From contig NC_092350.1 in the NCBI RefSeq assembly GCF_963676685.1, forward strand, positions 40,424,001 to 40,488,000: a stretch of DNA of 64,000 nt. The letters run 5' to 3'. Shown in pieces: positions 11,194 through 63,636 of the stretch (position 1 is the stretch's first letter; each line of letters begins with the position of its first letter). The DNA comes from Mytilus edulis (lineage: Eukaryota). The notes below the pieces were generated by a model. The model searched no databases. It was not told where the DNA came from and saw only the letters and a program-made list of their open reading frames with translations. A program made the position numbers and the translations under genes.

Positions 11194-12764
11194 CTAATTT
11201 ATAACTTCATAGACAAACACAGTTTGCTTTGCATTTGCAATCAAAAGCTGATTTCTTTTTCTGTCGAAATGTATCGCAACAGGACTTTCCAATCCATCAT
11301 TCTGAGATAAAACTTGTCTGTTTTGAAGTCCATCAGGAGACAGTACTACTATTCGATGTAATTTTGAACAAGCTACTTTAATACATGTACACGTTTTCGC
11401 TGTTATCTACTGCTATGCCACGAGGGCTCATCAAAATATTCTCATCTTTGAATGTCCAGACTGCTTTGCCTTTCATGTCACAACAACTTACAGTTTTAGC
11501 GTTAGTATAATAAAGATTGTTATCGAGCATCTGAATGTATGCCCCTGAAGATAAATTAAACTGTATTATAGCAGTACTTCTTTCGTCCAGAGGGTTTAAT
11601 TTGATAATACCTTTTGAGCGAACACAAACCAACAGAGAGTTATTGTGTAGAATATACTTAGTTGTCTTCATATCTATATCTATCAAATTGACTCCTTTAT
11701 TTGCATCGCTGTTTGACGTTACAACTACTTTTTTATCATCTAGAAACGCTATATCATATGCGTAGGCAGGCTTTACGGAAATGTTACTAAGTCTTTTCCA
11801 GTCGGTACTGAAGACACATACACTTTCGGCACTAAAGTGAAAGTCACTTAAAGCATAATTTCCGCTCGGCAGAGCAATAATTCCTCTAATTACTTTAAGA
11901 TCAGTTTGGATTTCTTTAGCAAGTCTGAATTTAACATCAGTGATTATTCTAATTCTCGTTCCTTCAAGTTTTAACTGAGCTTGTTTTTTTTGTGTATGAT
12001 CAAAGAAAGTTTACACGGACCTCTCTTTACCTTTACTGAACCAAACGTTTCATACTATTGGTAATGTTGTCTATTTTGTCATCGATGTTGAAGAGTAAAG
12101 TATTTTCATCCACACTGTGGTCTTCAATGAGCGACTGTGTTTAAGACTCAACACTATCTAACTCTGATGAGATTATTCGCAATTCATAGTATGTTTGAAA
12201 ATCCATCGCGTACCTGTCCATATCTTGTAATTGTTGTTCAGCTTTGTTTGTGGTATCAGTCTTCCTTTCGAGGATCTGTAAAGTGTGGTTCATATCAATA
12301 TTTATTTTTTCTGTAATCTCAGATATATAATTTCTGATCTTCCTTTCTAATTTGTCAAAATGGTCATTAATCTTTTTTCCTTGCGTCGCTGATCTGGGAC
12401 AACATAGTTTCTTCTTGCGGTTTTATACTTCCCTGTTGTTTCTTTAACACGTTCTGTAGAGTTTTGATGTTTTCATTATTATCTTTCAAACTTTGTTTTG
12501 TTTCATGGCAAAGTATTGACTTTTTAACGTTTTCTCAGTATCATCTTACTTAGGGGAATTATCCCCTTGCATCCTTCATGCTTTTCAATGCATTTAGGAC
12601 AGATAATTGTATCATGACCTTGGCAAACCATTTGATATTGTTCATTAATATGTTCCATGCACATATTACTGGTTTGTGAAATACATGACGACATCGACAA
12701 GAAGTCCAAACAGTGTTATATGTCGATGGTCACAGATATCACAATGTTACTGAATTGATGCCAT
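11194..12764 (-). pseudogene. TRIM-NHL-like copy 1 (pseudogene)
   Basis: ATG GCA TCA ATT CAG TAA gives a stop at codon 6; most of B-box1 is deleted; several frameshifts. B-box2, coiled-coil and NHL fragments are collinear with intact copies (ORFs 12524-12709, 11378-11686). Confidence 0.85.
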
Positions 12765-12876
12765 TTAATGTTTCCTGCAAAGAAAAGGTGTCTGCATAAT
12801 TGTTTTGCACCATGCAAACAATCTGTATTGAAGCAATTTTCTTGGTTTGTTTAACCCAAAATGTAAACAAGTACGG

Positions 12877-12907
12877 AAATATCGCAAAGTTGTTGAGTTA
12901 CCGCCAT
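12877..12907 (-). pseudogene. 5' remnant (about 10 codons, MAVTQQLCDI) of a further TRIM-NHL-like copy
   Basis: Matches 38567-38596 (start of copy 4); homology continues through the acceptor and intron to 13070. Confidence 0.7.
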
Positions 12908-13359
12908 TTAATGTATTCTGAAAATAAGAAAGACACAACATATTTTCCCAAGCAATCGATAAATCGATAAGAATCAAATTAACTTGTTTTGATAAATCCA
13001 CAACAAATTTTAATCCAGCAGCTAGTAAAAACAGAATTTCCCTAGGTTGTGTGAACGGAGTCTGAACGAAATAAAATTGAGAATGGAAATGGGGAATGTG
13101 CCAAAGAGACAACAACCCGACCATAGAAAAAAACAACAGCAGAAGGTCACCAACAGGTCTTCAATGTAGCGAGAAATTCCCGCACCCGGAGGCGTCCTTC
13201 AACTGACCCCTAAACAAATATATACTAGTTCAGTGATAATGAACGCCATACTAATTTCCAAATTGTACACAAAAAACTAAAATTAAAATAATACAAGACT
13301 AACAAAGGCCAGAGGCTCCTGACTTGGGACAGGCGCAAAAATGCGGCGGGGTTAAACAT

Positions 13360-15443: not shown

Positions 15444-15673
15444 TGTGAGATCTCAACCCTCCCCCTATACCTCTAGCCAATGTAGAAAAGTAAACGCATA
15501 ACAATACGCACATTAAAATTCAGTTCAAGAGAAGTCCGAGTCTGATGTCAGAAGATGTAACCAGAGAAAATAAACAAAATGACAATAATACATAAATAAC
15601 AACAGACTACTAGCAGTTAACTGACATGCCAGCTCCAGACTTCAATTAAACTGACTGAAAGATTATGATTTCA

Positions 15674-15740
15674 TCATATGAACATCAGGCACAATCCTTC
15701 CCGTTAGGGGTTTAGTATCATACCATCATAACATATATGA
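15674..15740 (-). promoter_or_regulatory. SECIS element (type II), second copy
   Basis: Exact reverse complement of 14856-14922, about 50 nt downstream of the RT stop at 15791. Confidence 0.75.
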
Positions 15741-16778: not shown

Positions 16779-18168
16779 AATCAAAGAGCTGAATAGCTCT
16801 GAGGGGAAAGACGACCCTTGTTTCTATTTAATTAATTTTTTTTGGAAAGGGGGGGGGGGTATCTTTTGATAGTCTTCATATAAAGAATTATAAAAGAGAA
16901 CAGCTAGAACATGCAGAAAAGTTTGACAATATTGAAATCAATTGTTGTTTATGTAATTTCATTTCCTTAGTTTAGGATTCAATTTGGACCAATGGAAGAG
17001 ATCTGCACTTTCTAAATTTAAACATTTGATTAAAGTTGATAGTTAATTATCTAAAATTCAACTGAATTCTGTCATTTCACAACAACTACAATATTTTTTG
17101 AAATCTTGATTGTTTACCACTGAACTGCAGGCTAGGACCATTTTCCATTTTTTGTGACAGTACTCTTGGATTTTTCATTTTTTTCATAAGAAAGTGTGGA
17201 CTGAAAAATCTATTCAGTTTTACATTTCCATTGATAAAGTTCCCAGTTACAACTCTCATCACAGGGAAACAGGTACTAATAAAAAACAATATGATTGATG
17301 TAAATTGTGTGAAGCTTGTTTCCCCAAATACTAAATTTGAAATATTTGTAAATTTCATGAATAAATAGTATAGGTTGAAACTACAAAATGCAACATATTA
17401 ATTTTTTATTTTTTTTTACCATTACAATGATTATGTTGGTACACAAAAATTTAGTTTTAATGGAAGACTACTAATCCAATGAAATGTCACATTTTAAGTG
17501 TTTAAATACATTAACTTTTATTTTAGTGGATAATTACTCATCAGTTGAGGTGCTCCTTTCTGCATGTTCTAGCTGTAGGAAGATTCTCAAAACAGAATTT
17601 TTACAGAAAAAAAATCAATAAAATCGTTTCTCTCCCCTATCTAATGTAACCCCACGATCTTTGTTTACTTTGAAAGTTGCTGACCTACAAATTAAAGTAT
17701 TGCATGTTGATGTTTGAATCATCTACAGCAAACAATATTATGTTTAGATTTAGCAAATACCAATTTGTAATTAGTGCACGATCTCTGGGAATGATTTAAA
17801 TAACCAATGAAGGATATCCTTGCTTCTGCATAGTGTGGCATTCCAAGAATGACGTCACTATAAAATACAATGTAGGTTGGATATATTTAGAATATCTCGT
17901 CATACTGATTTGTCCGGATTGTAAAAGAAACGTAAATAGTGTAAATGAGAGCTCAAGATACGATAATTTCGTCAGAAACAGAAGGGAAATGTGTAAAAAA
18001 GTGTTTAAAGTCAAACTATTCATTTCTGGGTCTCCTTCTCTTCAATCTAAGTAAGATTTGTTGGGGGGTTTTCCACACTATAAAAAACAAAATGAATGAT
18101 GTGAGGGAATGTCACTCTGGTCAACCCCATAGGGGATTGACGGCTTGAAGCCGTCTTTCCCCCAAAAA
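16779..18168 (-). mobile_element. Non-autonomous Helentron-type element (HINE)
   Basis: Asymmetric subTIRs GGGGAAAGACG (16803-16813) / CGTCTTTCCCC (18152-18162); 5' hairpin GACGGCTT-G-AAGCCGTC; 3' hairpin AGAGCT-GAAT-AGCTCT; inserted in an A/T run. Empty site at about 39000-39015. Confidence 0.75.
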
Positions 18169-19899
18169 ACAATCGTACATCAATGGATAAAAACAAATCA
18201 CCAAATTTCATAAAAATTGATGAAATCATTTTTGAGTGGTTATTGTTAGTGTCGATCATCCAGCCGCTTTATTTTTTTTAAAGTATAGCGTCTTGATGAA
18301 AAGTGATATAAAATGGTAATTTATGACATTCAGAATAGTTTCGGATTTTTTAGCTTGTTTTTAAAGATATTGTCCAAGACGAATAACCGAGAAGTTGGTT
18401 ATTAACTTTGGAAGATTTATATTACGATAATAGTATTGAAAAGCCCGAGTGTATCGATTATTGTTTAAATCTATTTATATTTTTTTGGTGACGACTTAAA
18501 AGTCGTGTATAACACCAGACAGCGTAGCTTCCATGACAGCGAAGGAAAATAACAGCCAATCATACCTTTGTAAGATGATACAACAACACAAACTGTTACA
18601 TAATTTTTAAAGCAAACCTGAAACATCGAGTAGTTATATTCTTTCATGCATATCTCTGCTACGCAAGCAAGTTAATAATTATACAATAAATGGCAATTTT
18701 TGTATTGACTGGGACCACTCGAACAGTCGTGTGTACACTATAAATACATTTTGGAGTTGATTTGTAGTATCTTTATCTTTATAAATACTTGATGGAAAAG
18801 TGGTACTTCTGGTTTTCTTTCATATGTTTCATGATAATTGCATTGTCTTTTTAAAAGAATGATATTTACTTGAATATTTCAGGATATTATTTTCAATGAT
18901 AATCTGTGAAATTATTTCCCATTATAATACATTTTTTTTAACAATTTACTTTAATTCCAATACACTATTATTATTGCATAGTATTTGTAAAGATTAAGTT
19001 TTTTTAAAAATTTTTCAATAGTTATACTACCCAGATTGAATTTCACGGCAAAGGAAAAAATATCCTAGGAAAATATTTTCCTCTAGATAAAAAGATAACA
19101 ACACATACAGTAACATTTTTTTTTTAAATTTTGCTTTAAACCATGACGCCGAAATATGAACTTCACCCATAATAAGTTTGTTGTATCTATCTGTAGTGTA
19201 TAAGGGAGTTTGAATCTTGATATGTGTACAAAAAGGGGGAGATGAGAGATGCGCAATGTTGTACACATTTACAGGAGGGAACGCAATCCAAAACTATAAG
19301 CAGAAGAAAAACAAACAAAGTATATCTAGAAGATGCCATTTTGTACATACACCAAACGGTCAAAATGATTTATGCTCGATTTTTTTTTAAAAACAAATGC
19401 ATTTATCTTATACAAACATATAAGAAGTGGGACACATTGTTATGAAGAGTAATTTAAATATACTGTTAGTTAACAAAGTCTGGACTGGTCAACTTAAAAT
19501 AGAAAAATACTTTTTTTGCACTTTTAAAAGACCTTTTTTTTCACACTAAAAAAAGTTCATAACAGAATACAAATGTTGTCAGTGAATATATACCAATTGG
19601 CTATCTTAACCTTGAAATAAAACTATGGCATGAGGAAAACATTTAAAATTCGATTTTATTCAAAACAATAGACAGTAAAACAATAGATCCAGCATCAATG
19701 AAAGGAGGTGTCAATGAGACAGCAACCGGTGAACCCAATGACATACATTACCAAAAGTAGACATCAACATAATTAAGAGGTCATACTGTAGACTAAAACA
19801 AAAATTGAGAATAAAAGTACCAAAAGGTCAACATTATACAAATAAGAAGATGCGGTATGAATACCAATGAGACAATTATAAAACATGATCACACTGAAC

Positions 19900-20220
19900 T
19901 AAATAAAGAAGTTAAAAATATGAAAAAAATCAAACTGATGCTAATAATAATCTACAGGGAATAAAGACTTCATGGACGATTTCAAGGTAAATCACGAAAA
20001 CAACGTAAAAGAAGTAAGATCGGTTAAGTCATCCATTAATAAAGTAGCAAATGATCTTGCAGATAAAACTTTGGAGCTGAGAAATGAAATTAAAACAGTA
20101 GTCAATACCGCAAAACAAGAAAATGAAAATCTACAGAGCACCGTTATTGACCTTCAATGCAGATCAAAGAAGAATAACTTGGTGTTTACTGGTTTGACGG
20201 AAACCGAAGGAGAAAACACT
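19900..20220 (+). mobile_element. Fragment of a LINE ORF1-like coiled-coil protein (second copy 40740-41060)
   Basis: Heptad-rich peptide followed by DLQCRSKKNNLVFTGLTETEGEN, resembling the coiled-coil/RRM junction of L1-type ORF1p; truncated against the TRIM 3' region. Confidence 0.55.
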
Positions 20221-20697
20221 GTACATATGTACTTTTGTATGATATTTTTGTTTTATATCTATGCTACTACATGTAACTTCAAATACACAAATATTTTTTT
20301 TACTTTGATTTCCAATCAAAACACGATTGTTTTTTCTGTCGAAATGTATTCCATAAGGTTGAAACAATCCATCCACACTTGAAATGAAATTAAAACAGTA
20401 GTCAATAACGCAAAACTAGAAAATGAAATCTACAGAGCACCGTTATTGACCTTCAATGCAGATCAATGAACAATAACTTTGTGTTTACTGGTTTGACGGA
20501 AACCGAAGGAGAAAACACTGTACATATGTACTTTTGTATGATATTTTTGTTTTATATCTATGCTACTAGCAAATGGTTCTAATTTATAACTTCAAATACA
20601 CAAACATGTTTTTTGCTTTGATTTCGAATCAAAACACGATTGTTTTTTCTGTCGAAATGTATTCCATAAGGTTTAAACAATCCATCCACACTTGAAA
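20081..20697. repeat. About 300-bp tandem duplication of ORF1 fragment + TRIM 3' end (also 40920-41550)
   Basis: GAAATGAAATTAAAACAGTAGTCAATA...GGAGAAAACACTGTACATATG...CAATCCATCCACACTTGAAA occurs twice in each segmental unit. Confidence 0.85.
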
Positions 20698-22264
20698 GAA
20701 GTTGCCTGTTCTGTTGTCCATCAGGGGATAAAACCACTATTCTATGTAAAGCAGAACAAGCTACATAAACGTTTCCGTAGTTATCTAGCGCTATTCCACG
20801 TGGATATTTTAATATGTTCTCATCTTTAAATGTCCATATTGCCCCGCCGTTCATATCACAACATACAATACTTTTAGGTCCATCGTAAGTAAAATAAATT
20901 TTGTCATTAAAAACTTCAATATATGAAAAAGGGGGCAAATCATACTTCCATATAGCAGTACTTCTTCCGTCCTGAGGGTTAAGTTTACAGACACCATCTC
21001 CTTTTGCGCAAATGAACAATGACCCATTATGATGTTTAATCCCATAGCACTGATACTTCGTTGGTATAAGTGTAACCTTTTCTGTATCGATGTCTATTAT
21101 ACTGACTCCGGTAGACTGTTCGTTGTTTGACGTTGTAGCTACAGTTTTATAATCTATATACGTTATATCAAATGCATTGGCGGGTTTAACTGAGATTTGA
21201 CTCAGTATTTGCCAGTCGGTACTGAAGACAAGTACATTTTTGGTACTATAGTCACTTAAGGCAATGTTTCCATTTGGAAGAACGACAATACCTCTAATGT
21301 CTTGAACGTCTGGTTTTACGGTTTTCACTAGACTTGGTTTGATATCAGTAATTGATCTAATCTTTGACTCTACTAATTGTGCTTGTTTTGTTTTGTGTGT
21401 TACGAGAGACAATTTACAATGAGTCTTCTGTACCTCAAGTGAACCGAATGATTGAATACTTGATGAAAGGTTGTCGATTTTGTCATCAATATTGAATAGT
21501 ATAGTAGGTGCATCCAATATGTGATCTCCAGTGATCGACTGCAGGTACGACTCAGTAGTAGCTGCTTCTAATGAGATTTTCTGTAATCCAAAGTACGTTT
21601 GAAGTTCGGTCGCGTACCTGTCCATATCTTGTAACTGTTGTTCAGCTTTGTTTGTGCTATCAGTCTTATTTTCTAGGATCTGTAGTTTATTTTTAATGCT
21701 ATCTTTCGATTCACTTGTTATCTCGAAAATTTCGTTTTTGATCTTCTTTTCCAATTTATCAAAGTGGTCATCAATCTTCTTCCTTGTGTCTGTAACCTGG
21801 GACAATATTTTCTCTTCTTGCTGCTTTATTCTTCCCTGTTGTTCATTCAGTTCAATCTGTAGAGTTTTTATGTTTTGATCAATATCTTTCAAACTTAGTC
21901 GTGTTTCCTGGAAAAATGACGACTTTTTAACGTTTTCTATCATTTTACGAAGGGATACTATACCTTTGCATCCTTCGTGATTCTCAATACATGAGGGGCA
22001 AATAAGTTTATCGTGAGCTTGGCAAACCATTTGATATTGTTCAGTATGTTCCATGCATATATTACTGGTTTCTGAAATAGATGAAGACATCGACAAGTAG
22101 TCCCGAATCGATACAGTTACGTGATTTTCGGACGACTTTGAAAATCCATGATAATCATTGCAATCTTTACAAAATGCTTGTTTACATTCAGGACACCAGA
22201 CAGTGGATGGTTTTGTAATATGTCGATGGTCACATATATCGCAATGTTGCTGAATTGATGCCAT
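20579..22264 (-). CDS. RING-less TRIM-NHL-like protein, copy 2 (561 aa)
   Basis: B-box1 CDICDHRH..WCPEC...C..C...H, B-box2 CMEH......CQAH...ICPSC...H, coiled coil, NHL-like repeats (YPRGIALDNYGNVYVA, IVVLSPDG). Start placed at MASIQQ because a TTTTCTTTGCAG acceptor lies 10 nt upstream. Confidence 0.9.
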   Translation of the reverse strand: MASIQQHCDICDHRHITKPSTVWCPECKQAFCKDCNDYHGFSKSSENHVTVSIRDYLSMSSSISETSNICMEHTEQYQMVCQAHDKLICPSCIENHEGCKGIVSLRKMIENVKKSSFFQETRLSLKDIDQNIKTLQIELNEQQGRIKQQEEKILSQVTDTRKKIDDHFDKLEKKIKNEIFEITSESKDSIKNKLQILENKTDSTNKAEQQLQDMDRYATELQTYFGLQKISLEAATTESYLQSITGDHILDAPTILFNIDDKIDNLSSSIQSFGSLEVQKTHCKLSLVTHKTKQAQLVESKIRSITDIKPSLVKTVKPDVQDIRGIVVLPNGNIALSDYSTKNVLVFSTDWQILSQISVKPANAFDITYIDYKTVATTSNNEQSTGVSIIDIDTEKVTLIPTKYQCYGIKHHNGSLFICAKGDGVCKLNPQDGRSTAIWKYDLPPFSYIEVFNDKIYFTYDGPKSIVCCDMNGGAIWTFKDENILKYPRGIALDNYGNVYVACSALHRIVVLSPDGQQNRQLLSSVDGLFKPYGIHFDRKNNRVLIRNQSKKHVCVFEVIN

Positions 22265-22435
22265 TTTATCTTTCCTGCAAAGAAAAGTATAAGCATATTG
22301 GTTTTGCACCATGTAAAAAAACCTGTATGGATATAATCAATTAACTTGGTTTGTTTAACACAAAATGTAAACAATTACTGATTCTGTCTGCATTCTATTG
22401 ACCGAAACTTCACTATCACATTTATTTAATTCATG

Positions 22436-25400
22436 ACAATAGACAATATTTTATTGGCACAAACGCATTTACAATAAATGGTAATGACCGAATGGATAAA
22501 CAATTTGCTATACATGGTAGTAAAATACAAACAATTATATATATATGTGTGAATAAACGATTAAAGGTATAATGAAAATCTATTACAATAGATTACTTCT
22601 TGCATTTAAACAATTTGTTACGAAAGAGGAAGATAATTTTAGTGCCGTATAAGGTGTATTATTAAGTATAAGATTTATTTTATTTTTATCGCACAAAGTG
22701 GATATACTTTTTCCTGTAATTTTGAACATTTTTAATACAAAAGTCTCTCTAATACTGGAGTAACCTCTGCAGTGTAGCAGCATGTGCTGTTCATTTTCAA
22801 TTTCGCCACTTTTACAGATTTCACAAATTCTTTGATCTCTGGGCACTTTTAAATATCTTCCTCTTTCAATGGCAAGGTTATGAGCACTAACTCTTAATTT
22901 ACATAATGATGATCGATCTGATCTATTTTTTAAAGCATCAACATAACCTGCCCGTTCACTCATTTTGTAAACACTTTGGAAAAATGTTAATTTTGGAGAT
23001 GCTGAAATATTTGCATGTTGTTCCTGAAAACCCTGTTCAATTAGTCTTTGTTTTATAAAACCAAACAGGGGTTTAATAGTAAGGTTATCATTTGACAAAT
23101 AAGATAAACCTAAGTTTTGAATAATAATATTTAACCTTTTAACCCATGGGTTGCTTTTTTTTGTAGCATTATATATTTGGTGAACTAAACTTCCTTCTGA
23201 AGTGATTAAATGGTCCCAGAATTTAATGCAAGATAACATTATCCTATTTTTCAATGGTAGTCTTGCAATTTCGGAACGACATGCATCATTCGAGGCCTTA
23301 CAGTGTACTCCCAAGATTTCTTTAATAAATTTTATATGCAACTTTTCATAGGCATCACTGTCTTTAAATGTCGAAATAATTCCCCAGATTTCGCTACAAT
23401 AAAGGAGAATAGGGGCTACTAAGGAATCAAAAAGTTTTTCCAGAAGTTTACAAGGGTTATCTAATCCTATTGTTTTCTTTATTTTAAAATATGCTTTCCT
23501 AGCTTTTTCCATAAGCGAAGTGATGGCGACATTAAAACTGCCATTATATCTAATATTAATACCCAAGTAACAATAAGTACTAACTGTCTCTAAGGATTTG
23601 CCATTATAATAAAATTCGTTTAGAAAAGACTGTCCGTTTGAATTAAAAACCATTACTTTTGATTTCTCTATATTGACTTGTAATTTCCAAGAAGAACAAT
23701 AATTACTTAATGTATTGAGACAATTTTGCAAACCCTCTTTGCTATCCGATAATAATACAATATCATCGGCATACAAAAGTGCATTAAATGAAACATCACC
23801 AACTACAACTGGATCTGCATTGATATTTTCCAAGTCTTTTTTAAGTATGTCGTTTATAAAAAAATTAAAGAGAAGAGGACTCAATACATCTCCTTGTTTA
23901 ACACCACAGTTTGATTCAAATGATGGGCTAAGACCATTAGAAAATTTAATTCTACATTTTGTATTAGAGTACATTGAAAATATTATATTAAAAATATGTT
24001 TTTGTACATTACTTTGAAGTAGTTTATGAAATAATCCTATTCTCCAAATTGTTTCAAACGCTTTTCTAAGATCAATGAAAGCAGCAAATATTTTTTTTTT
24101 TTGGATTTATAATTGCTGACAATGGATTTCAAGGAAAAGATGTGGTCTGCAGTTCGACTATCTTCTTTGAAGCCAATCTGGTTATTACTTATTAATTTGT
24201 TTACATTTATATGAGCAAGTAATCGAGAGAGGATTATTTTATTAAACAATTTTCCCAGGTTCGAAATAATGGATATCCCTCTGTAATTACCAGGGTCACT
24301 TTTACTTCCCTTTTTATGTAGAAGTACTAAAAATGATTCATTCCAAACTTTTTGAAAACTTCCATTACTTAAAATAAAGTTAAATAGCTTTTGTAATGGT
24401 TTTGTTAAGACTGATATTCCATTTACAACATTTCATTTGAAATAAGATCAGTAGCTGTGCTTTTCACATTTTTAAGGGACTTAATTGCCTTTACGATCTC
24501 ACTTGTTTTAATGTGTTTCTGAAAGTCATTTGTCCTGTTGTTTTTTTGAAAATCATCAAATAATGTTTCAAAATTTTTGAGAATTTTTTCTTGAAATGGG
24601 TTAAAACTCTCGCCCGTTTTGTTTAGTTTTTTAAAATAGCTGATAAATTCATCTTGTGCAAACTGTACAGAATCTTCATTATTATAAGATTTACTTAGTT
24701 TTTGTAAACGATTCCAAAATGTTTTAGGGTCTTTATTAACATTTGCACTTATTTGAAAACATATTTTATTTTTGTATGATCTTTCTGCCTTTTTACAAGC
24801 TCTTCTATACTTAGAGCGGCAGGAGTAAAAAGATTTTCTGTGAGTGTTATTATATGGAAATTTGTTAACCAGTTTTTCATAACTTTTAACTGTTTTGCGC
24901 AAATAATTACAAGAGTCTGAAAACCATGGCTTTCTTTTAGATTTTTTTTTCTATGGGGCATTTTGTTTACTAATTTGCTGATTTTTTTGCGCTTTCATAT
25001 AAAATTGATGTTAAAGATTGTACAGCTGAATCACTGCTTTTAAAAGAGTTATTTGTAAATAATGCTAATTTAGTTTTATTTTCTTTACTGGTGATATCCT
25101 TCACATATGACTCTATGGCTCCAGGTGACCAAATAAATTTTCCTGGAAGGGGATCCAGTTGTGTTAGGTTAACAAAATTTGTGGAATGGAAAAAAGTTAA
25201 CAATGTACAACTGATTGGATAATGGTTTGATAGTGACGTTAAGTCATGTATTTCAAAATAACCAACTAAGCTAAGTAAAATATAAAATCAAAAGACACAA
25301 GTGTATAATGTGAGGTCTATAATCAACAAGACTGCATCCATTATATTTTATGCATGATTGTTTACCATGTAAATCACCAATCGTTCTTCCATTCAATATT

Positions 25401-25687
25401 GTAAGGCTTGTTTCTTTACAAATATCAAGCAAACATCTACCACTATTATTAATACGTATGGGGTCAAGAATATTTCTTGGCATTATACTGTCTTCTACAT
25501 AATAGTTATCAACTACATATGGTTGTTTAGATTCATCAAATAACACATAGTCTGGTGAGGTATTTGTGTGGGCATTAAAATCCCCTTGCACCATTATATC
25601 TCCTAGTTTACAATATTTTTCAATATCAGACAGTAAATGTGCATATACAGAGTTAAGATCCGGTACATTACAACTGGAGTTTTCATG
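22436..25687 (-). mobile_element. 5'-truncated non-LTR retrotransposon (APE-RT; RTE-X or L2/CR1 group, clade unresolved) in intron 1 of TRIM copy 2
   Basis: APE motif QGDFN; RT motifs NQIGF, GVKQGDVLSPLLF, YADD; C-terminal CxxC...H...C; frameshifted; AATAAA plus ATTGTCT tail; TTCATG duplicated at 22430-22435 and 25682-25687. Empty site at 51075-51085. Confidence 0.9.
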
Positions 25688-25871
25688 TAATAAAAAGGTT
25701 AATATATAGATCGATTTAACACAAGAATGTTAACTAAAATGTAGGAAACATCTCTACGCTATTAGAGCAAGAACAGTGTTGTTTTGTTACAAAATGTGAA
25801 ATAATAAATAATAATAAAATAGTAAAAAGGGTTAATAAAGAAAAATAACATTTACAAAAACAAAAACGTAC

Positions 25872-25970
25872 CTGCAGTTTAAACAACACAAATCAATGTA
25901 TTCGACCAGGAAGTTGAGCACTAAACATTTAGGTGAATTGGATCGACTTGTTCAAGTTATAAAACGCGCC
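25872..25970 (-). promoter_or_regulatory. Putative core promoter and non-coding exon 1 of TRIM copy 2
   Basis: GGCGCG-TTTTATAA (25970-25957), Inr-like TCA 30 nt downstream (25934), CTTCCTGG, donor CTGCAG|GTACGT; conserved at five loci. Confidence 0.65.
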
Positions 25971-29194: not shown

Positions 29195-30880
29195 CTAATC
29201 GATAACATCATATATAAAACATTCAGCGTATTTATTTACAACCAATAGATGCTTGCTATTTCTATCGAAATGAATCGCACAAAGCCTTTCAAATCCATCC
29301 TCCTGCGATAAAAGTGTTCTGTTTTGTTTTCCATCAGGTGATAACACCACAACTCGATGTAATGTTGAACAAGCAACGTACACTTTTCCTCTATTATCAA
29401 CTGCTATGCCATGTGGATATTTCAATAAACTCTCATCTTTAAATGCCCAAATTTCCTTCCCGTTTATATCGCAAGATGTGACAGTTCTAGTAAAATCATT
29501 AGTATAATAAATTATGTTATCAAAGATGTCAATATAGGACCATGAAGGTAAATCAGATTTGATGATAAGGATACTGCTGTCGTCTTGGAGGTTAAGTTTG
29601 AAAATACCCTCGCTGGGGGCACAAACAAACAATGACCCATTGTGGTGTATTATTCCAAAGCATTTATAATTTGTTGGAATATACCTTATTACTTTGTGTG
29701 TATCAATATCTATAATGTTGACACCTTTACGTGAATCTATAGTTGAAGTTATAGCTACGGTTTTATCATCTATATATGTTACATCAAATGCATTGGCAGG
29801 CTTTACTGAGTATTTCCGAAGTATTTTTCCGTCGGTACGGAAGATAGCAACATTTCCTTTATTCTGATCACTTATTGCAATATTTCCACTTGGTAGTGCA
29901 ACAACGCCTTTAATGTCTGAAAACTCGTGCTTTATTGTTTTCATTAGCCTTAACTTTAGATCACCGATGGATTTAATCCTTGACTCTACTATCTGAGCTT
30001 CTTTATTTTTGTGTCTAATTAGGGGAAGTTGATATGGAGTTTTCTGCAATTCCACTGACCCGAAAGCTGTAATGTCATCGCTAATCGTGTCTATTTTGTC
30101 ATCAATCGTAAGCAGTAAAGTTATTTCATCCATGCAGTGGTCTCCAACGATCGATTGTAGGTACGAATCAGTGCTAGCTGCCTCTGATGAGATCTTCCGT
30201 AATCCAAGGTACGTTTGAAGGTCAGTCGCGTACCTGTCGATATCTTGTAACTGTTGTTCAGCATGATGTGTATTAGTATTCCTGCTTTCTAGGATCTGAA
30301 GTGTGTGTTTAATACTATCGTTTGATTTACTTGTTATCTCAACGATTTCATTTCTTATCTTCTTTTCCAATTTATCGAAGTGGGAATTAACTTTGTTCCT
30401 TATGTCGCTGATTTGGGATAATATTGTCTTTTCTTGCTGCTTTATACTTTCTTGTTGTTTCTTTAATTCACTAAACATACTTTTTATGTTTTTATCAATG
30501 TCTTTCAAACTTTGTTTTGTTTCTTGGAAAAGTGACGACTTTTTCACGTTTTCTAACACCTTACTAAGAGGAACTATACCTTTGCATTCGTCATGATTTT
30601 CAATACATTTCAGGCAGAGAAGTTCATCGTGAGCTTGGCAAACCATTTGGTATTGATCATTATGTTTGATGCACATATTGCTGGTTTGTGAAATAGATGA
30701 AGACATCGCCGAGTAATCCTGCATCGATACAGTAACGTGATGTTTGGACGACCTTGAAAAACCGTGATAATCATTACAATCTTCACAAAATGCTTGTTCA
30801 CATTCGGGACACCAGACAGTGGACGGTTTTGTTATATGCCGATGGTCACAGATATCGCAATATTGCTGAGTTGATGCCAT
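29195..30880 (-). CDS. RING-less TRIM-NHL-like protein, copy 3 (561 aa)
   Basis: Intact ORF with two B-boxes, coiled coil and NHL-like repeats (YPHGIAVDNRGKVYVA); acceptor TTTTTTGCAG 10 nt upstream of the ATG. Confidence 0.92.
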   Translation of the reverse strand: MASTQQYCDICDHRHITKPSTVWCPECEQAFCEDCNDYHGFSRSSKHHVTVSMQDYSAMSSSISQTSNMCIKHNDQYQMVCQAHDELLCLKCIENHDECKGIVPLSKVLENVKKSSLFQETKQSLKDIDKNIKSMFSELKKQQESIKQQEKTILSQISDIRNKVNSHFDKLEKKIRNEIVEITSKSNDSIKHTLQILESRNTNTHHAEQQLQDIDRYATDLQTYLGLRKISSEAASTDSYLQSIVGDHCMDEITLLLTIDDKIDTISDDITAFGSVELQKTPYQLPLIRHKNKEAQIVESRIKSIGDLKLRLMKTIKHEFSDIKGVVALPSGNIAISDQNKGNVAIFRTDGKILRKYSVKPANAFDVTYIDDKTVAITSTIDSRKGVNIIDIDTHKVIRYIPTNYKCFGIIHHNGSLFVCAPSEGIFKLNLQDDSSILIIKSDLPSWSYIDIFDNIIYYTNDFTRTVTSCDINGKEIWAFKDESLLKYPHGIAVDNRGKVYVACSTLHRVVVLSPDGKQNRTLLSQEDGFERLCAIHFDRNSKHLLVVNKYAECFIYDVID

Positions 30881-33683: not shown

Positions 33684-33788
33684 CTGCAGTTCAAACAACA
33701 TCAATCAATACAATGTTTTCCACCAGGAAGTTGAACAGGTAAACAGTTACGTGAATTTGATTAACTTGTTCAAGTTATAAAACGCGCC
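33684..33788 (-). promoter_or_regulatory. Putative core promoter and non-coding exon 1 of TRIM copy 3
   Basis: GGCGCG-TTTTATAA, TCA 30 nt downstream (33752), CTTCCTGG, donor CTGCAG|GTACAT. Confidence 0.65.
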
Positions 33789-41432: not shown

Positions 41433-43119
41433 CTAATTTATAACTTCAAATACACAAACATGTTTTTTGCTTTCATTTCCAATCAAAACTCGATTGTTTT
41501 TTCTGTCGAAATGTATTCCATAAGGTCGACACAATCCATTCACACTTGAAAGAAGTTGTCTGTTCTGTTGTCCATCAGGGGATAAAACCACTATTTTTTG
41601 TAAAGTGAAACAAGCTACATAAACGTTTCCGTAGTTATCTACCGCTATTCCACGTGGTAATTTTAATATTTTCTCATCTTTAAATGTCCACATTGCCACG
41701 CCGGTCATATCACAACATACAATACTTTTAGGTCCATCGTAGGTACAATAAATTTTGTCATTAAAAACCTCAATATATGAAAAAGGGGGCAAATCATACT
41801 TCCATATAGCAGTACTTCTTCCGTCCTGAGGGTTAAGTTTACAGATACCATCTCCTTCTGCGCAAATGAACAATGACCCATTATGATGTTTAATCCCATA
41901 GCACTCATACTTCGTTGGTATAAGTGTAACCTTTTCTGTATCAATGTCTATTATACTGACTCCGATAGACTCTTCGTTGTTTGACGTTGTAGCTACAGTT
42001 TTATAATCTATATACGTTATATCAAATGCATTGGCGGGTTTAACTGAGATTTTACTCAGTATTTGCCAGTCGGTACTGAAGACAAGTACATTTTTGGTAC
42101 TATAGTCACTTAAGGCAATGTTTCCATTTGGAAGAACGACAATACCTCTAATGTCTTTAACCTCTGGTTTTACGGTTTCCACTAGACTTGATTTGATATC
42201 AGCAATTGATCTAATCTTTGTCTCTACTAATTGTGCTTGTTTTGTTTTGTGTGTTACAAGAGACAGTTTACAATGAGTCTTCTGTACCTCAAGTGAACCG
42301 AATGATTGAATACTTGATGAAAGGTTGTCGATTTTGTCATCAATATTGAATAGTATAGTAGGTGCATCCAATATGTGATCTCCAATGATCGACTGCAGGT
42401 ACGACTCAGTAGTAGCTGCTTCTAATGAGATTTTCTGTAATCCAAAGTACGTTTGAAGGTCGGTCGCGTACCTGTCCATATCTTGTAATTGTTGTTCAGC
42501 TTTGTTTGTGCTATCAGTCTTATTTTCTAGGATCTGTAGTTTATTTTTAATGCTGTCTTTCGATTCACCTGTTATCTCGAAAATTTCGTTTTTGATCTTC
42601 TTTTCCAATTTATCAAAGTGGTCATCAATCTTCTTCCTTATGTCAGTAACCTGGGACAATATTTTCTCTTCTTGCTGTTTTATTCTTCCCTGTTGTTCAT
42701 TTAGTTCAGTCTGTAGAGTTTTTATGTTTTGATCAATATCTTTCAAACTTAGTCGTGTTTCTTGAAAAAAATGACGACTTTTTAACGTTTTCTATCATTT
42801 TACGAAGGGATACTATACCTTTGCATCCTTCGTGATTCTCAATACATGAGGGGCAAATAAGTTTATCGTGAACTTGGCAAACCATTTGATATTGTTCGTT
42901 ATGTTCCATGCACATATTACTGGTTTGTGGAATTGATGACGACATCGACAAGAAGTCCTGAATCGATACAGTCACGTGATTTTGGGACGACTTTGAAAAG
43001 TCATGATAATCATTGCAATCTTCACAAAATCCTTGTTCACATTCGGGACACCAGACGGTGGACGGTTTTGTTATATGCCGATGGTCACAAATATCACAAT
43101 GTTGCTGAGTCGATGCCAT
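41433..43119 (-). pseudogene. TRIM-NHL-like copy 5, one +1 frameshift in an A7 run (may be an intact gene)
   Basis: ORFs 42733-43119 and 41433-42746 join across 42765-42771, one base longer than copy 2; no other lesion seen. Confidence 0.7.
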
Positions 43120-43427: not shown

Positions 43428-43532
43428 CTGCAGTTTACTTTAAACAACATTAATCAATGTATTCGACCAGGAAGTGGAACAGGTAAACATTTGAGTGAAT
43501 TTGATTATCTTGTTCAAGTTATAAAACGCGCC
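43428..43532 (-). promoter_or_regulatory. Putative core promoter and non-coding exon 1 of TRIM copy 5
   Basis: GGCGCG-TTTTATAA, TCACT 30 nt downstream (43496), CTTCCTGG, donor CTGCAG|GTATTT. Confidence 0.65.
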
Positions 43533-49238: not shown

Positions 49239-50910
49239 CTAATCGATAACATCATATATAAAATAGTCAGCATAGCTATTAACAACCAATTAATGCTTGC
49301 CTTTTCTATCGAAATGAATCGCGCAAGGTATTTTCAATCCATCCTCTTGCGATAAAAGTATTCTGCTTTGTTTTCCATCAGGTGATATCACCACCACTCG
49401 ATGTAATGTTGAACAAGCAGCATACATGTTTCCACTATTATCAACTGCTATGCCATGTGGATATTTCAATAAACTCTCATCTTTAAATGTCGAAATTTCT
49501 TTTCCGTTTATATCGCAAATTGTGACAGTTCTAGTAAAACCGTTAGTGTAATAAATGATGTTATCAAAAATTTCAATATAGGACCATGAAGGTAAATAAG
49601 ATTTGATGATAAGTTTACTGCTGCCGTCTTGGAGGTTAATTTTGAAAATTCCATCGCTGGAAGCACACACGAACAAAGACCCATTGTGGTGTATTATTCC
49701 AAAGCATTTATAGTTTGTTGGAATGTACTTTGTGACCTTTCCTGTATCAATATCTATAATATTGACACCTTTACGAGAATTTTTTCTTGACGTTGTAGCT
49801 ACGGTTTTATCATCTATATACGTTACATCAAATGCACTGGCAGGCTTTACGCAAACTTTACTAAGTGTCTTCCCGTCGGCACCGAAGAGAGCAACATTTC
49901 CTGTATTCAGATCACTTACTGCAATATTTACGCTGGGTAGTGCAACAATACCTTTAATGTCTGAAAACTCGTGCTGTATTGTTTTCACTAGCCTTAATTT
50001 AATATGACCAATGAATTTAATCCTTGTCTCTACTATCTGAGCTTCTTTATTTTTGTGTCTAATGAGGGGACGTTGATATGGACTTTACTGTATTTTCACT
50101 GACCAAAAAGATGTAATATCATCGCTAATGGTGTCTATTTTGTCATCCATTTTAAGGAGTAACGTGATTTCATCCAAGCTGTGGTCTTTAATGATCGATT
50201 GTAGATACAAATCATTACTAGCTGCTTCTGCAATCCTAAGTACGTTTGAAAGTCAGTCGCGTTCCTGTCAATACCCTGTAACTGTTGTTCAGCATGGTGT
50301 TTAATATTCATCCGGCTTTCTAAAATCTGTAGTGTTTGCTTAATATTTTCGTTTGATTTACTTCTTATCTCAATGATTTCATTTCTTATCGTCTTTTCCA
50401 ATTGATCGAAGTGGGAATTAACTTTGTTCCTTGTATCGATGATCTGGGCTAAAATTGTATTTTCTTGCTGCTTTATACTTCCTCCTTGTTTCTTTAATTC
50501 ACTCAGCAAGTTTTTATGTTTTTATCAATATCTTTCAAACTTAGTCGTGTTTCCTGGAAAAATGACGACTTTTTAACGTTTTCTATCATTTTACGAAGGG
50601 ATACTATACCTTTGCATCCTTCGTGATTCTCAATACATGAGGGGCAAATAAGTTTATCATGAGCTTGGCAAACCATTTGATATTGTTCCGTATGTTCCAT
50701 GCATATACTACTGGTTTGTGAAATTGATGAAGACATCGACAAGTAGTCCTGAATCGATACAGTTACGTGATTTTCGGACGACTTTGAAAATCCATGATAA
50801 TCATTGCAATCTTCACAAAATGCTTGTTTACATTCAGGACACCAGATAGTGGACGGTTTTGTAATATGCCGATGGTCACATATATCGCAATGTTGCTGAA
50901 TTGATGCCAT
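49239..50910 (-). pseudogene. TRIM-NHL-like copy 6 (chimeric pseudogene)
   Basis: ORFs 50503-50958, 50135-50509, 49290-49988; frameshift near 50508, small deletion near 50230, premature stops. Confidence 0.85.
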
Positions 50911-51266: not shown

Positions 51267-51364
51267 CTGCAGTTTAAACAACACAAATCAATGTATTCGA
51301 CCAGGAAGTTGAACACTAAACATTTAAGTGAATTGGATTAACTTGTCAAGTTATAAAACGTGCC
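51267..51364 (-). promoter_or_regulatory. Putative core promoter and non-coding exon 1 of TRIM copy 6
   Basis: GGCACG-TTTTATAA, TCACT 29 nt downstream, CTTCCTGG, donor CTGCAG|GTACAT. Confidence 0.6.
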
Positions 51365-51461
51365 AAATTTTAAATGTACTTAATTTGGTAAAATAACATC
51401 AAAATGTGTTTTTCCTGAAAACAAGGACACAACGTTCATACCTTAGCATTGCATTACCAAC

Positions 51462-56798: not shown

Positions 56799-56842
56799 AC
56801 ATCACTGAAGAGACATTTATTGTCGAAATCCGGATCTGGTGT
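56799..56842 (+). ncRNA. Minimal type I hammerhead ribozyme
   Basis: ACATCA-CTGAAGA-GACA-TTTAT-TGTC-GAAA-TCCGGA-TC/TGGTGT; palindromic stem III ATCCGGAT; predicted cut after 56836. Confidence 0.8.
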
Positions 56843-57331: not shown

Positions 57332-57373
57332 CATCACTGAAGAGGCATTTATTGTCGAAATCCGGATCTGGTG
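57332..57373 (+). ncRNA. Minimal type I hammerhead ribozyme
   Basis: CATCA-CTGAAGA-GGCA-TTTAT-TGTC-GAAA-TCCGGA-TC/TGGTG; stem II change A>G keeps pairing (G-U); predicted cut after 57368. Confidence 0.8.
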
Positions 57374-60700: not shown

Positions 60701-61080
60701 TAATTCTTAATATTTACGTGAAAGTAATATGTATTAATTATATGTCAATTGAATAAATAATACATGTCAATTTTTGATATTATGCTGTATTGCTTTAATT
60801 TGCAACAACTACAATTTCAATGTTGAAAGTTGAACGTAAAGTATTGAATGTAGTAATTCAATTATTGTTTGTATGCTTAAAATAACTGTTCTACGATCTT
60901 TTCGACGTAACTAACTGCTTATACATGATCATAAAATTTAAGTAATATTTTTGAGAAAATGTAATCTTACAGGAAAAAAAGATAACGGACGAAGCAGCAA
61001 AAAAGAAACTGCATAATTCCAAAAAATTTATGCTAGTTCTTGTTACATCTTGAATATGCATGTTGCGAATATAGAACTTT

Positions 61081-62763
61081 CTAATCGATACCATCATATA
61101 TAAAATAGTCACCATAGTTATTAATAACCAATAGATGCTTGCCTTTTCTATCGAAATGAATCGCACAAGGATTTCTCAATGCATCATCTTGCGACAAAAG
61201 TATTCTGCAATGTTGTCCATCAGGTGATATCACCACAACGTGATGTGATTTTGAACAAGCAACGTCCACGTTTCCACTATTATCAACTGCTATGCCATGT
61301 GGATATTTCAATATTCTTTCATTTTTAAATGTCCAAATTTCCTTCCCGTTCATGTCACAAGACGTTACAGTTCTCGTACCATCGTTAGTATAATAAATGA
61401 TGTTATCAAAAATTTCAATATAAGACCATGAAGGTAAATCAGATCTGATGATAAGAGTACTGCTGCCGTCTAGGAGGTTAAGTTTGAAAATGCCCTCGGT
61501 GAAAGCACACACGAACAATGACCCATTGTGGTGTGTTATTCCATAGCATTTATATTTTGTTGGAATATACTTTGTTACTTTTTCTAGAGAAATATCTACT
61601 ATATTGACACCTATACGCGAACCAATATCTGACGTTGTAGCCACGGTTATATCGTCTATATATGTTACATCAAATGCATTGGCAGGCTTTACAGAGACTT
61701 TACTTGGTATCTTCCTGTTAGTACTGAAGATAGCAACATTTCCTGTACTCTGACCACTAATTGCAATATTTCCGCTAGGTAGTGCAACAATGCCTTTAAT
61801 GTCTGAAAACTCGTGTTTTATAGTTTTCACTAGCCTTAACTTAATATCACCAATGGATTTAATCCTAGTCTCTACAATTTGAGCTTCTTTATTTTTGTGT
61901 CTAATAAGGGAAAGTTTATAAGGAGTTTTCTGTAATTCCACTGACCCAAAAGTTGTAATATCATCACAAATGGTATCAATTTTGTCATCAATGTTAAGGA
62001 GTAAAGTGGTTTCATCCACGCTGTGGTCTTCAATGATCGACTGCAGGTACGACTCAGTAGTTGCTGCTTCTGACGAGATCTTCCTCAATCCAAGGTACGT
62101 TTGAAGGTCAGTACCGTACCTGTCTATGTCATGTAATTGTTTTTCAGCATGATGTGTATTAGTATTGCTGCTTTCTAGCATCTGTAATGTTTGTTTAATA
62201 CTATGATTTGATTCACTTGTTATCTCGATGATTTCATTTCTTATCTTCTTTTCCAATTTATCGAACTGGTCATTAATCTTTTTCTTTGTTTCTATGATCC
62301 GGGCTAAAATGTTTTCTTCCTGTCTCTCTAAACTTTCTTGTTGCTTCTTTAATTCACTTTGTAGAGTTTTGATGTTTTGATCAATATCTTTCAAGCTTTG
62401 TTTTGTTTCTTGGAATAGTGACGACTTTTTAACGTTTTCTAATACCTTACTAAGGGGTACTATACCTTTGCATTCATCATGATTCTCAATACATTTCAGG
62501 CAGAGAAGTTCATCGTGAGCTTTGCAAATCATTTGGTATTGTTCATTATGTTCATTGCACATATTACTCGTTTGAGAAATCGAAGACATTGCCGAGTAAT
62601 CCTGAATCGATACAGTAACGTGATGTTTGGACGACCTTGAAAAGCCATGATAATCAGTACAGTCGTCACAAAATGCTTGTTCACATTCGGGGCACCAGAC
62701 TGTGGATGGTTTTGTAATATGTCGATGATCACAGATATCACAAAGTTGGTGAGATGCCGCCAT
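61081..62763 (-). CDS. RING-less TRIM-NHL-like protein, copy 7 (560 aa)
   Basis: Intact ORF with two B-boxes, coiled coil and NHL-like repeats; acceptor TTTTTTTTCAG 10 nt upstream of the ATG. Confidence 0.92.
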   Translation of the reverse strand: MAASHQLCDICDHRHITKPSTVWCPECEQAFCDDCTDYHGFSRSSKHHVTVSIQDYSAMSSISQTSNMCNEHNEQYQMICKAHDELLCLKCIENHDECKGIVPLSKVLENVKKSSLFQETKQSLKDIDQNIKTLQSELKKQQESLERQEENILARIIETKKKINDQFDKLEKKIRNEIIEITSESNHSIKQTLQMLESSNTNTHHAEKQLHDIDRYGTDLQTYLGLRKISSEAATTESYLQSIIEDHSVDETTLLLNIDDKIDTICDDITTFGSVELQKTPYKLSLIRHKNKEAQIVETRIKSIGDIKLRLVKTIKHEFSDIKGIVALPSGNIAISGQSTGNVAIFSTNRKIPSKVSVKPANAFDVTYIDDITVATTSDIGSRIGVNIVDISLEKVTKYIPTKYKCYGITHHNGSLFVCAFTEGIFKLNLLDGSSTLIIRSDLPSWSYIEIFDNIIYYTNDGTRTVTSCDMNGKEIWTFKNERILKYPHGIAVDNSGNVDVACSKSHHVVVISPDGQHCRILLSQDDALRNPCAIHFDRKGKHLLVINNYGDYFIYDGID

Positions 62764-63547
62764 TTAAAGTATTCTGAAAAAAAAGACACTGCATATTTTC
62801 ATCACCAAGCGTTATATCGAAAAAAAACTTTAATTCTCCTTGTTTTGATCAATCTCAAAAAAAGCCTTGCAGCGAAATGTAAAATTTCGGCAGGTTTTCT
62901 GTACGGAATCTGAAAGAAACGTATTCAATATAAAAAGTTGTACCAAGGGCGCATATACGCTTTCTCACTTTAACTCGAATTAAAGTTTTGGATTAATTTA
63001 TTTGATTATCAAGAAATATTATGAACATTGCTCAAGTATAAGCCAAACCGAGCGCCCAATGCCCCAAAAAGACATGCTCACACAGTAGTTCCTATTGAAA
63101 CAAAACATGGACAATTTGACACTATTAAAGCTACCAAGTTAAAAATCGGAAACTTAAAATAAATAGTAATCAAATGGGATTAACACAAATAACCAAATTG
63201 CAGACATTGCATGACAATAGTGACAGCATTTTTGAATTATTGTTTGAAGTTTTGACGACAGATAGACGGGCGGACAACTGTATAACATAATATGTCAACA
63301 GGAAACACAAAAACGTAAACATTTCCGAGGTTGTCTGCATCATAGTAAACAAGACCTCACGAATTCATTCATTTGATTCATTTATCAAAAAAGGTTAATA
63401 CATAGATATATATAGATCGATCATTTTACACAAGAATATTGACTAAAGTGTATGAATAATCTCTGTCGTCTTGATCAAGAACAATTTGAAGAAATGTGAA
63501 AGGATAAATATTAAAACAGAAAACAATCATTTAAAAAGCATGTTTAC

Positions 63548-63636
63548 CTGCAGTCTGTTACAACACCAAATGAATGTATTCGACCAGGAAATACACACCA
63601 GGTAAATTTGATAAACTTCAAGTAATAAAACGCGGC
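63548..63636 (-). promoter_or_regulatory. Diverged promoter / non-coding exon 1 of TRIM copy 7
   Basis: CCGCG-TTTTATTA, TTTCCTGGTCGAATACATT, donor CTGCAG|GTAAAC; shortened relative to the other copies. Confidence 0.55.

What the first reader, a model, noticed from the sequence alone, without database searches (positions are those of the whole stretch)
11194..63636. Birth-and-death array of at least eight RING-less TRIM-NHL-like genes
Seen: eight same-strand copies in 52 kb (three intact, one near-intact, three pseudogenes, one remnant), all lacking RING and with an intronless CDS. Two propeller types are present (copies 2/5 versus 3/4/6/7, with copy 1 more divergent). Knowledge: NHL propellers of TRIM71/Brat bind RNA, and B-box/coiled-coil regions drive oligomerisation. 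Inference: a rapidly turning-over intracellular sensor or restriction-factor repertoire that may borrow E3 activity through hetero-oligomers.
Basis: partly seen in the sequence, partly recalled or inferred. Interest (0 to 1): 0.7.

Follow-up and report, generated by a model that had tools for sequence, protein, structure and literature searches.

The report
Mussel RING-less TRIM propeller gene array
This mussel DNA holds a real row of duplicated, partly broken and reshuffled genes for TRIM-like proteins that lack the ubiquitin-ligase finger and change fastest on one predicted face of their propeller head; they are one cluster of a very large mussel family that likely acts as target-binding adaptors inside the cell, with no target yet known.

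Summary
Observation confirmed. Seven minus-strand copies lie at 11194-62763 (c2, c3, c7 intact; c5 one frameshift; c1, c4, c6 broken) plus small remnants; the array runs on to at least 12 copies or fragments. Each encodes two B-boxes, a coiled coil and a six-bladed NHL-type propeller. The RING is absent: exon 1 is non-coding, and 5 of 7 copies have TAA directly before the ATG. A spliced RNA junction and orthologues in other Mytilus assemblies exclude an artefact. New here: c6 is a c2/c3 chimera; the genome holds at least 150 relatives and an intronless RING-bearing sister family; a modelled cross-family dimer passes (0.65 against 0.00, probably by TRIM likeness). Top-face loops change fastest (44 of 262 against 12 of 184 residues between species), but positive selection is not significant in this array (p 0.09-0.32); it is in three sister clusters, robustly in one. 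The top face is near neutral in charge, so LIN41-type RNA binding is unsupported. The scan already noted this family in oyster, clams and this genome. I found no dedicated paper. Verdict: a typical cluster of an under-described bivalve TRIM-like expansion; sensor role plausible, untested.

The parts
11194..12764 (-). c1, pseudogene: early TAA, about 104-nt deletion, five frameshifts; intact orthologue in M. trossulus (P0009)
12879..13069 (-). remnant of a second, c4-type 5' end (intron end, acceptor, TAA-ATG and 29 coding nt) fused upstream of c1
20081..20384 (-). tandem duplicate of the 3' end of c2 (last propeller blade and 3' flank)
20579..22264 (-). c2, intact 561-aa CDS: B-box1, B-box2, coiled coil, NHL-type propeller (type A)
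   Evidence: stranded RNA reads
22275..25871 (-). 5'-UTR intron of c2 (3,597 nt) holding a non-LTR reverse-transcriptase element
25872..25960 (-). non-coding exon 1 of c2 (donor at 25872 shown by 4 junction reads; 5' end not mapped)
29195..30880 (-). c3, intact 561-aa CDS (type B); TAA directly before the ATG
33684..33780 (-). predicted non-coding exon 1 of c3 (donor by homology; 5' end not mapped)
37630..38596 (-). c4, pseudogene with about 0.7 kb internal deletion, frameshift and stops (type B)
40919..41237 (-). tandem duplicate of the 3' end of c5
41433..43119 (-). c5, near-intact (type A): one 1-nt insertion near 42771 in a run of T; not checked against reads
43428..43520 (-). predicted non-coding exon 1 of c5
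49239..50910 (-). c6, chimeric pseudogene: c2-type 5' part to CDS nt 381-388, c3-type coiled coil and propeller; two frameshifts, two stops
   Evidence: three of the breaks lie in a public contig with no difference
51267..51360 (-). predicted non-coding exon 1 of c6 (91% like c2's)
61081..62763 (-). c7, intact 560-aa CDS (type B); TAA directly before the ATG; orthologues in other M. edulis and M. galloprovincialis assemblies
63548..63640 (-). predicted non-coding exon 1 of c7
18164..22413 (.). segmental duplication unit around c2, 92.8% identical to 39008-43265 around c5

Best explanation
The array is one tandem cluster of a very large Mytilus family of RING-less TRIM-like genes (two B-boxes, coiled coil, six-bladed propeller) that gains, loses and reshuffles copies, and whose proteins likely work as dimeric intracellular adaptors that bind varied, probably pathogen-derived, targets on the predicted top face of the propeller. 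Shown: architecture, RING absence, two-exon structure, low-level transcription of a c2-like gene, pseudogenes, one chimera, faster change in the top-face loops, and a RING-bearing sister family in the same genome. Predicted: propeller fold, antiparallel coiled-coil dimer, compatibility with a RING-bearing sister. Inferred: the variable rim around a partly conserved R/K-F-Y-Y-R centre sets target specificity; the B-boxes assemble dimers on a repetitive target; ubiquitin, if involved, comes from a RING-bearing partner or the B-boxes; the driver is immunity.
For: Domains and fold: (best matches Brat, Mei-P26, Thin, NHL-2, TRIM2; 13-19% identity). RING absence: TAA before ATG in c1, c3, c4, c5, c7; c2 and c6 read open for about 30 codons into exon 1 without a Met. 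Family: 78 scored full-length matches and 150 of 150 scored B-box matches at E<=6e-20 on 11 chromosomes. Chimera: 49 of 54 informative sites c2-like before nt 381-388, 276 of 330 c3-like after, 0 of 10,000 permutations. Rate by face: omega top 0.61, 0.65, 1.10, 1.03 against bottom 0.27-0.46 and core 0.27-0.32 in four clusters; four orthologue pairs differ at 44 of 262 top, 12 of 184 bottom, 47 of 540 core residues, p 0.001; c2 against c5 16 top codons with amino-acid change and none only silent. Sister clusters: M8 against M8a p 0.0025, 7e-19, 1e-7, with 8 of 10, 8 of 9 and 10 of 10 selected sites on the top face. RING-bearing intronless homologues: 15 of 20 fetched match the family profile over nearly its whole length at E<=3e-41. 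Heterodimer model 0.65, best control 0.00, contacts agree at 90% or more, partner pLDDT 76 or more; the mark was reached by 51 of 78 solved and 2 of 108 mismatched pairs. TRIM2/3-like transcripts track Perkinsus tolerance in oyster (PMC9892467, passages).
Against: In this array selection is not significant: M8 against M8a omega_s 1.11 p 0.32 (6 intact copies), 1.19 p 0.19 with c5, 1.41 p 0.088 with broken copies; sites picked in other clusters have omega 0.84 here. With a free synonymous rate only cluster C stays significant (p 0.013; D 0.76; B omega 0.40), and pairwise dN/dS of the whole top class never exceeds 1 (0.58-0.97); gene conversion can inflate site tests. c2 against c5 excess over silent change is marginal (p 0.04-0.07) and c5 may be dead. 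Expression is low (depth 0-7 in 6% of three runs; c3 none in X22) and no challenge data were tested. No ligand. The dimer pass may be memory of solved TRIM dimers (TRIM28 matches the profile), and no homodimer or TRIM-cousin control was run.
Confidence: 0.5

Rival explanations
1. Nearly neutral birth and death: a redundant family multiplies by unequal crossing over, keeps its fold under purifying selection and drifts in its exposed loops, with no repertoire function.
For: No significant omega above 1 in this array; 4 of 7 copies in the window broken; low expression; many transposon pieces and mosaic copies.
Against: Top loops evolve about twice as fast as equally exposed bottom loops; omega_s 5.1 on top-face sites in cluster C survives cross-validation and a free synonymous rate; types persist across Mytilus species.
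Confidence: 0.25
2. Brat-like RNA-binding regulators: RING-less TRIM-NHL proteins that bind host or viral RNA with the propeller and repress translation.
For: Closest solved folds are Brat, Mei-P26 and NHL-2; Brat is itself RING-less (PMC3503706, table passage); a partly conserved centre R324 (30 of 61, K 8), F365 (40), Y408 (27), Y449 (50), R490 (35) is basic and aromatic, and Brat's surface is mixed hydrophobic and basic (PMC5908797, passages).
Against: Net charge of top-face loops is -3 to +1 in the six intact local copies and averages -0.3 in 33 members, unlike the strongly basic LIN41 pocket (PMC5908797, PMC9634614, passages); only one blade scores as a Pfam NHL repeat in c3 and c7; hundreds of variable copies are hard to reconcile with a conserved mRNA target. 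The charge count is from sequence, not a surface calculation.
Confidence: 0.12
3. Decoys or modulators: the RING-less proteins pair with RING-bearing sisters mainly to dampen them, or carry weak B-box ligase activity of their own as reported for TRIM16.
For: Heterodimer model passes; B-box zinc ligands are invariant in 61 of 61 aligned members; TRIM16 lacks a RING, heterodimerises and shows B-box E3 activity (PMC3357404, abstract).
Against: A pure decoy needs no variable propeller face; c3 and the modelled partner are only 21% identical, and TRIM coiled coils mostly prefer self (recalled).
Confidence: 0.1
4. Assembly artefact: haplotypes laid end to end or errors that fake pseudogenes.
For: c5's only break is 1 nt in a T run; outside the window a 2.6-kb tandem pair is 99.7% identical.
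Against: Copies are 70-95% identical at DNA level; c2, c7, c9, c11, c12 have orthologues in other assemblies; three breaks of c6 stand in a public contig without a difference (that run may be of the source animal).
Confidence: 0.03

Closest known systems
TRIM-NHL proteins, class VII / Marin subfamily C (TRIM2, TRIM3, TRIM32/Thin, TRIM56, TRIM71/LIN-41, Mei-P26; RING-less Brat and Wech)
   Same: Two B-boxes, coiled coil and C-terminal six-bladed NHL-type propeller; RING loss also seen in Brat (PMC3503706, passage).
   Different: No RING, no filamin domain, intronless CDS, degenerate NHL signature, at least 150 copies in tandem clusters, near-neutral variable top face rather than a conserved basic pocket.
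Mussel intronless RING-B-box-coiled coil-propeller genes (database label 'TRIM56'-like; L073-L086 here)
   Same: Homologous over the full length from B-box1 to the propeller, single coding exon, tandem clusters.
   Different: Carry an N-terminal RING; about 21% identity to c3; the 25 RING-less genes sampled form one side of a branch, SH-aLRT 97, though they were picked by likeness to c3.
TRIM5alpha and fish finTRIM multigene clusters (recalled; PMC3137616 seen as search listing only)
   Same: Tandem birth-and-death TRIM clusters with a variable C-terminal binding face and gene conversion.
   Different: Those have a RING and a PRY-SPRY (B30.2) domain and shown antiviral roles; here a propeller, no RING, no shown function, and no significant selection in this cluster.
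RING-less TRIM16 (PMC3357404, abstract)
   Same: No RING, two B-boxes, coiled-coil dimers, reported heterodimers with RING-bearing TRIMs.
   Different: Single-copy vertebrate gene with another C-terminal domain (PRY-SPRY, recalled).
Bivalve-expanded B-box orthogroup OG708 (PMC8382680, table passage)
   Same: B-box family expanded in bivalves (135 genes, 8.9 per bivalve against 0.1).
   Different: Not described further in the passage seen; identity with this family not tested.

Membership tests
TRIM (RBCC) E3 ligases | N-terminal RING finger | tested here: not met
TRIM (RBCC) E3 ligases | one or two B-boxes after the RING position | tested here: met
   Pfam B-box hits (over the cut-off in c2 only); 17 Cys/His ligands invariant in 61 of 61
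TRIM (RBCC) E3 ligases | long coiled coil forming an antiparallel dimer | tested here: met
   helix 116-217 and 220-246 in the model; antiparallel pairing in the dimer model; predicted only
TRIM (RBCC) E3 ligases | ubiquitin ligase activity | not testable with these tools
   needs an in vitro assay
TRIM-NHL / TRIM-like subfamily C | C-terminal six-bladed NHL propeller | tested here: met
   Pfam NHL over cut-off in 3 of 3 intact copies; pLDDT about 90 and best fold matches all TRIM-NHL
TRIM-NHL / TRIM-like subfamily C | descent from the TRIM2/3/32/56/71 clade | tested here: inconclusive
   only mussel sequences in the tree; nearest RING-filamin-NHL proteins about 23-26% over part of the length
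LIN41-type RNA-binding NHL | strongly basic top pocket with many conserved arginines | tested here: not met
   net top-loop charge -3 to +1 locally; by sequence count, no residue-level alignment to LIN41
Brat-type RNA-binding NHL | mixed hydrophobic and basic surface binding single-stranded RNA | tested here: inconclusive
   R/K-F-Y-Y-R centre partly conserved; binding untested
TRIM5/finTRIM-type diversifying restriction clusters | positive selection on the binding face | tested here: inconclusive
   not significant in this array; significant in three sister clusters, robust in one
TRIM5/finTRIM-type diversifying restriction clusters | PRY-SPRY (B30.2) domain | tested here: not met
   propeller instead
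TRIM5/finTRIM-type diversifying restriction clusters | induction by virus or interferon-like signals and shown restriction | not tested
   run conditions are not given

The most novel reading that the evidence does not exclude
Mussels run a two-part intracellular receptor system: hundreds of RING-less B-box/coiled-coil/propeller genes form a germline repertoire, diversified on one face by point change and by recombination that swaps heads between scaffolds, and they recruit ubiquitin ligase activity by heterodimerising with a parallel intronless RING-bearing sister family, an invertebrate counterpart of TRIM5/finTRIM built on a propeller with recognition and catalysis split between genes.
Probability: 0.15. 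Interest if true: 0.8.

Novelty: new variant of a known kind. Interest (0 to 1): 0.42.

Why it matters
Bivalve infection transcriptomes list many 'TRIM2/3-like' genes that are read as E3 ligases (PMC9892467, passages). If most belong to this RING-less family, that reading is wrong, and the family is a large candidate repertoire of cytosolic binding proteins in animals without adaptive immunity. The RING-bearing sister family gives a concrete partner to test. This array by itself is an ordinary member cluster and shows weaker selection than its sisters.

Tried and rejected
An eighth full copy at 62.8-64 kb or between copies: none at relaxed tblastn and blastn settings. Upstream RING exon: rejected. 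My first acceptor rule picked an internal AG for c2 and c6; corrected. The rule for in-frame stops in 54 distant members was uninformative (2 of 35 with a scored acceptor), so for them RING absence rests on the invariant first Met and on leaders of unlike length; 6 of 60 fetched loci were dropped (2 not read as intact, 4 where my rule found no Met). No holder was on record as RNA; only raw-read runs X22-X24 count as RNA, and they carry another species label. Site tests for selection in this array: negative. The max-chi scan was significant for all 10 copies, but rate differences can cause that and the best of 36 triplets was taken, so only c6 (and the c2/c5 5' switch near nt 203) is claimed. 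Sequence search of solved structures gave no residue-level alignment to LIN41. Codon models were my own code (F3x4, 6 beta classes, naive Bayes, no recombination), not PAML. Face assignment comes from DSSP strands plus recalled propeller topology, not from coordinates. Seven paper searches aimed at the family listed no paper devoted to it; subscription papers and supplements (for example of PMC7653742, whose main text has no B-box mention) were not seen.
Full report
What is there. The window is G000:C7:40424001-40488000; homolog labels place it in Mytilus, most likely M. edulis. Seven minus-strand copies of one gene lie between 11194 and 62763. c2, c3 and c7 are intact (561, 561, 560 aa). c5 has one inserted base in a T run. 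c1, c4 and c6 carry several breaks. Remnants are a second 5' end above c1 and two 318-bp duplicates of a 3' end. To the right the array goes on with two fragments and three intact genes up to about 99.6 kb in window numbering; 20 kb to the left hold none.

Protein. Pfam finds two B-boxes and an NHL repeat and no RING in 3 of 3 intact copies. The AlphaFold2 model from 61 aligned members (mean pLDDT 85, pTM 0.50) shows B-boxes, a 100-residue helix and a six-bladed propeller. The best fold matches are Brat, Mei-P26, Thin, NHL-2 and TRIM2 at 13-19% identity.

The RING is absent. Every copy has a splice acceptor about 10 nt above the ATG, and c1, c3, c4, c5 and c7 have TAA as the codon before it, so no exon can be spliced in frame at that acceptor. 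A conserved short exon 1 lies 0.3-3.6 kb upstream of c2, c3, c5, c6 and c7. In c2 and c6 the frame is open for about 30 codons into it, without a Met; a further upstream exon is not formally excluded for these two. Four stranded reads in run X22 join the donor at 25872 to the c2 acceptor region, with six more bases than the window predicts, and two contigs in X2 stop aligning at the acceptors of c2 and c3. No RING pattern occurs in 163 kb, and none of 150 scored RING matches lies near.

Transcribed and not an artefact. c2-like reads reach depth 2-7 on the gene's strand in 6% of X22; c3 has none there but is covered by contigs of runs guessed to be RNA. c6 and c7 stay under 1.3 in X23 and X24. 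Reads at 90-92% likeness may come from a paralogue. c2, c7, c9, c11 and c12 have close orthologues in other M. edulis or M. galloprovincialis assemblies. Three breaks of c6 stand in a public contig with no difference.

Turnover and shuffling. c1 is broken here and intact in M. trossulus; types P0004 and P0019 have no match above 77% and 63% in this array. c2 and c5 come from a 4.3-kb duplication (92.8%). c6 is c2-like for exon 1 and the B-boxes and c3-like from CDS nt 381-388 on (49 of 54 and 276 of 330 informative sites; 0 of 10,000 permutations). Trees of the two halves also disagree in the C14 cluster.

One cluster of many. The genome gave 78 scored full-length matches and 150 of 150 scored B-box matches at E<=6e-20 among 1,487 candidates, on 11 chromosomes; 54 of 60 fetched were read as intact single-exon ORFs. 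The Atlas lists many mollusc clusters of the same kind. Earlier scan notes describe the family in oyster, clams and another cluster of this genome.

Where it changes. I assigned loops to the top (b-c, d-a) or bottom (a-b, c-d) face from the model's strands before fitting. Omega is highest on top in all four clusters: 0.61 here, 0.65, 1.10 and 1.03 elsewhere, against 0.27-0.46 on the bottom. Four orthologue pairs differ at 44 of 262 top, 12 of 184 bottom and 47 of 540 core residues (p 0.001). Positive selection is not significant in this array (p 0.32, 0.19, 0.088), whose copies are old and deeply diverged. It is significant in three sister clusters with 26 of 29 selected sites on top, but with a free synonymous rate only one cluster holds, and pooled pairwise dN/dS of the top class stays at or under 0.97. 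So fast change on one face is shown; adaptive change is shown weakly, and for the family rather than this array.

RNA binding. LIN41 uses a strongly basic pocket, Brat a mixed surface (PMC5908797, PMC9634614; passages). Top-loop charge is -3 to +1 in the six intact local copies. A centre of R/K324, F365, Y408, Y449 and R490 is partly conserved. LIN41-type binding is unlikely; Brat-type binding or a small shared moiety is open.

Borrowed E3. The genome holds many intronless RING ORFs of 630-700 aa. Of 20 fetched, 15 match the family profile from B-box1 to the propeller at E<=3e-41, and 4 of 4 scanned carry Pfam RING and B-box. The 25 RING-less genes sampled fall on one side of a branch (SH-aLRT 97), which fits one RING loss, though they were chosen by likeness to c3 and the root is not fixed. 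A model of c3 (1-290) with L083 (100-392; 21% identity) scored 0.65 against 0.00 for the best of three controls, with contact agreement of 90% or more and partner pLDDT 76 or more; the mark was reached by 51 of 78 solved and 2 of 108 mismatched pairs. The interface is the usual antiparallel TRIM coiled coil, so the pass may be from likeness to solved dimers. It shows compatibility, not pairing. TRIM16 is a precedent for a RING-less TRIM that heterodimerises (PMC3357404, abstract).

Comparison and verdict. These are TRIM-like genes, not TRIM E3 ligases: the RING test fails. They resemble TRIM-NHL in build and TRIM5/finTRIM clusters in behaviour (the latter recalled). In print I saw only a bivalve B-box expansion in a table (PMC8382680), TRIM2/3-like transcripts in oyster disease tolerance (PMC9892467) and the general class of TRIM-like genes that lost a RING (PMC3503706); PMC7653742, PMC8195603 and PMC9334734 (passages) did not describe this family. 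Seven searches listed no dedicated paper. The best reading is a diversified intracellular adaptor repertoire (0.5), with drift the main rival (0.25). New variant of a known kind; interest 0.42.

Noticed in passing
window 5433-9706 (-): Multi-exon gene with FG-GAP repeats and a likely signal peptide, directly left of the array.
   Followed up: partly
window 13070-16687 and 53613-54729: Reverse-transcriptase fragments, two of them 96.8% alike in opposite orientation; Penelope-like by recalled motifs, weak Pfam RT score.
   Followed up: no
window 19951-20382 and 40789-41121 (+): Coiled-coil ORF fragments carried in the c2/c5 duplication unit; they look like LINE ORF1 pieces (recalled, no Pfam support).
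   Followed up: no
window 56178-57815: Repeat with strong, strand-biased RNA coverage and a back-joint 57766 to 56703 (365 reads in X23) that also stands in contigs of X15 and X20; probably a tandem element elsewhere in the genome.
   Followed up: no
window 59531-60480: Array of 8/16/24-bp tandem repeats just 3' of c7.
   Followed up: no
L002:5469-9507: Long plus-strand ORFs of 252, 790 and 339 aa between c9 and c10; DIRS-like retrotransposon by recalled motifs, untested.
   Followed up: no
L003:756-5943: 2.6-kb tandem pair 99.7% identical that creates the propeller-only fragment c10: very recent duplication or assembly artefact.
   Followed up: partly
L005:6485-7735 (-): Intronless 417-aa ORF that looks like a GPCR (recalled), right of the array.
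   Followed up: no
L007:7092 to L008:1218 (-): 4-kb array of 75-bp repeats, about 98% alike, open in frame and encoding a PDZ-like 25-residue unit (label recalled).
   Followed up: no
L071, L072, L076: RING-bearing TRIM genes lie within about 50-150 kb of RING-less clusters on C14 (61.39 and 57.20 Mb) and C10 (80.38 Mb); chance level not tested.
   Followed up: partly
Atlas structure row 8: A mollusc cluster of 113 members fuses a similar coiled coil and propeller to a DZIP3-like HEPN domain (48% of members), hinting at swapped N-terminal effectors.
   Followed up: no
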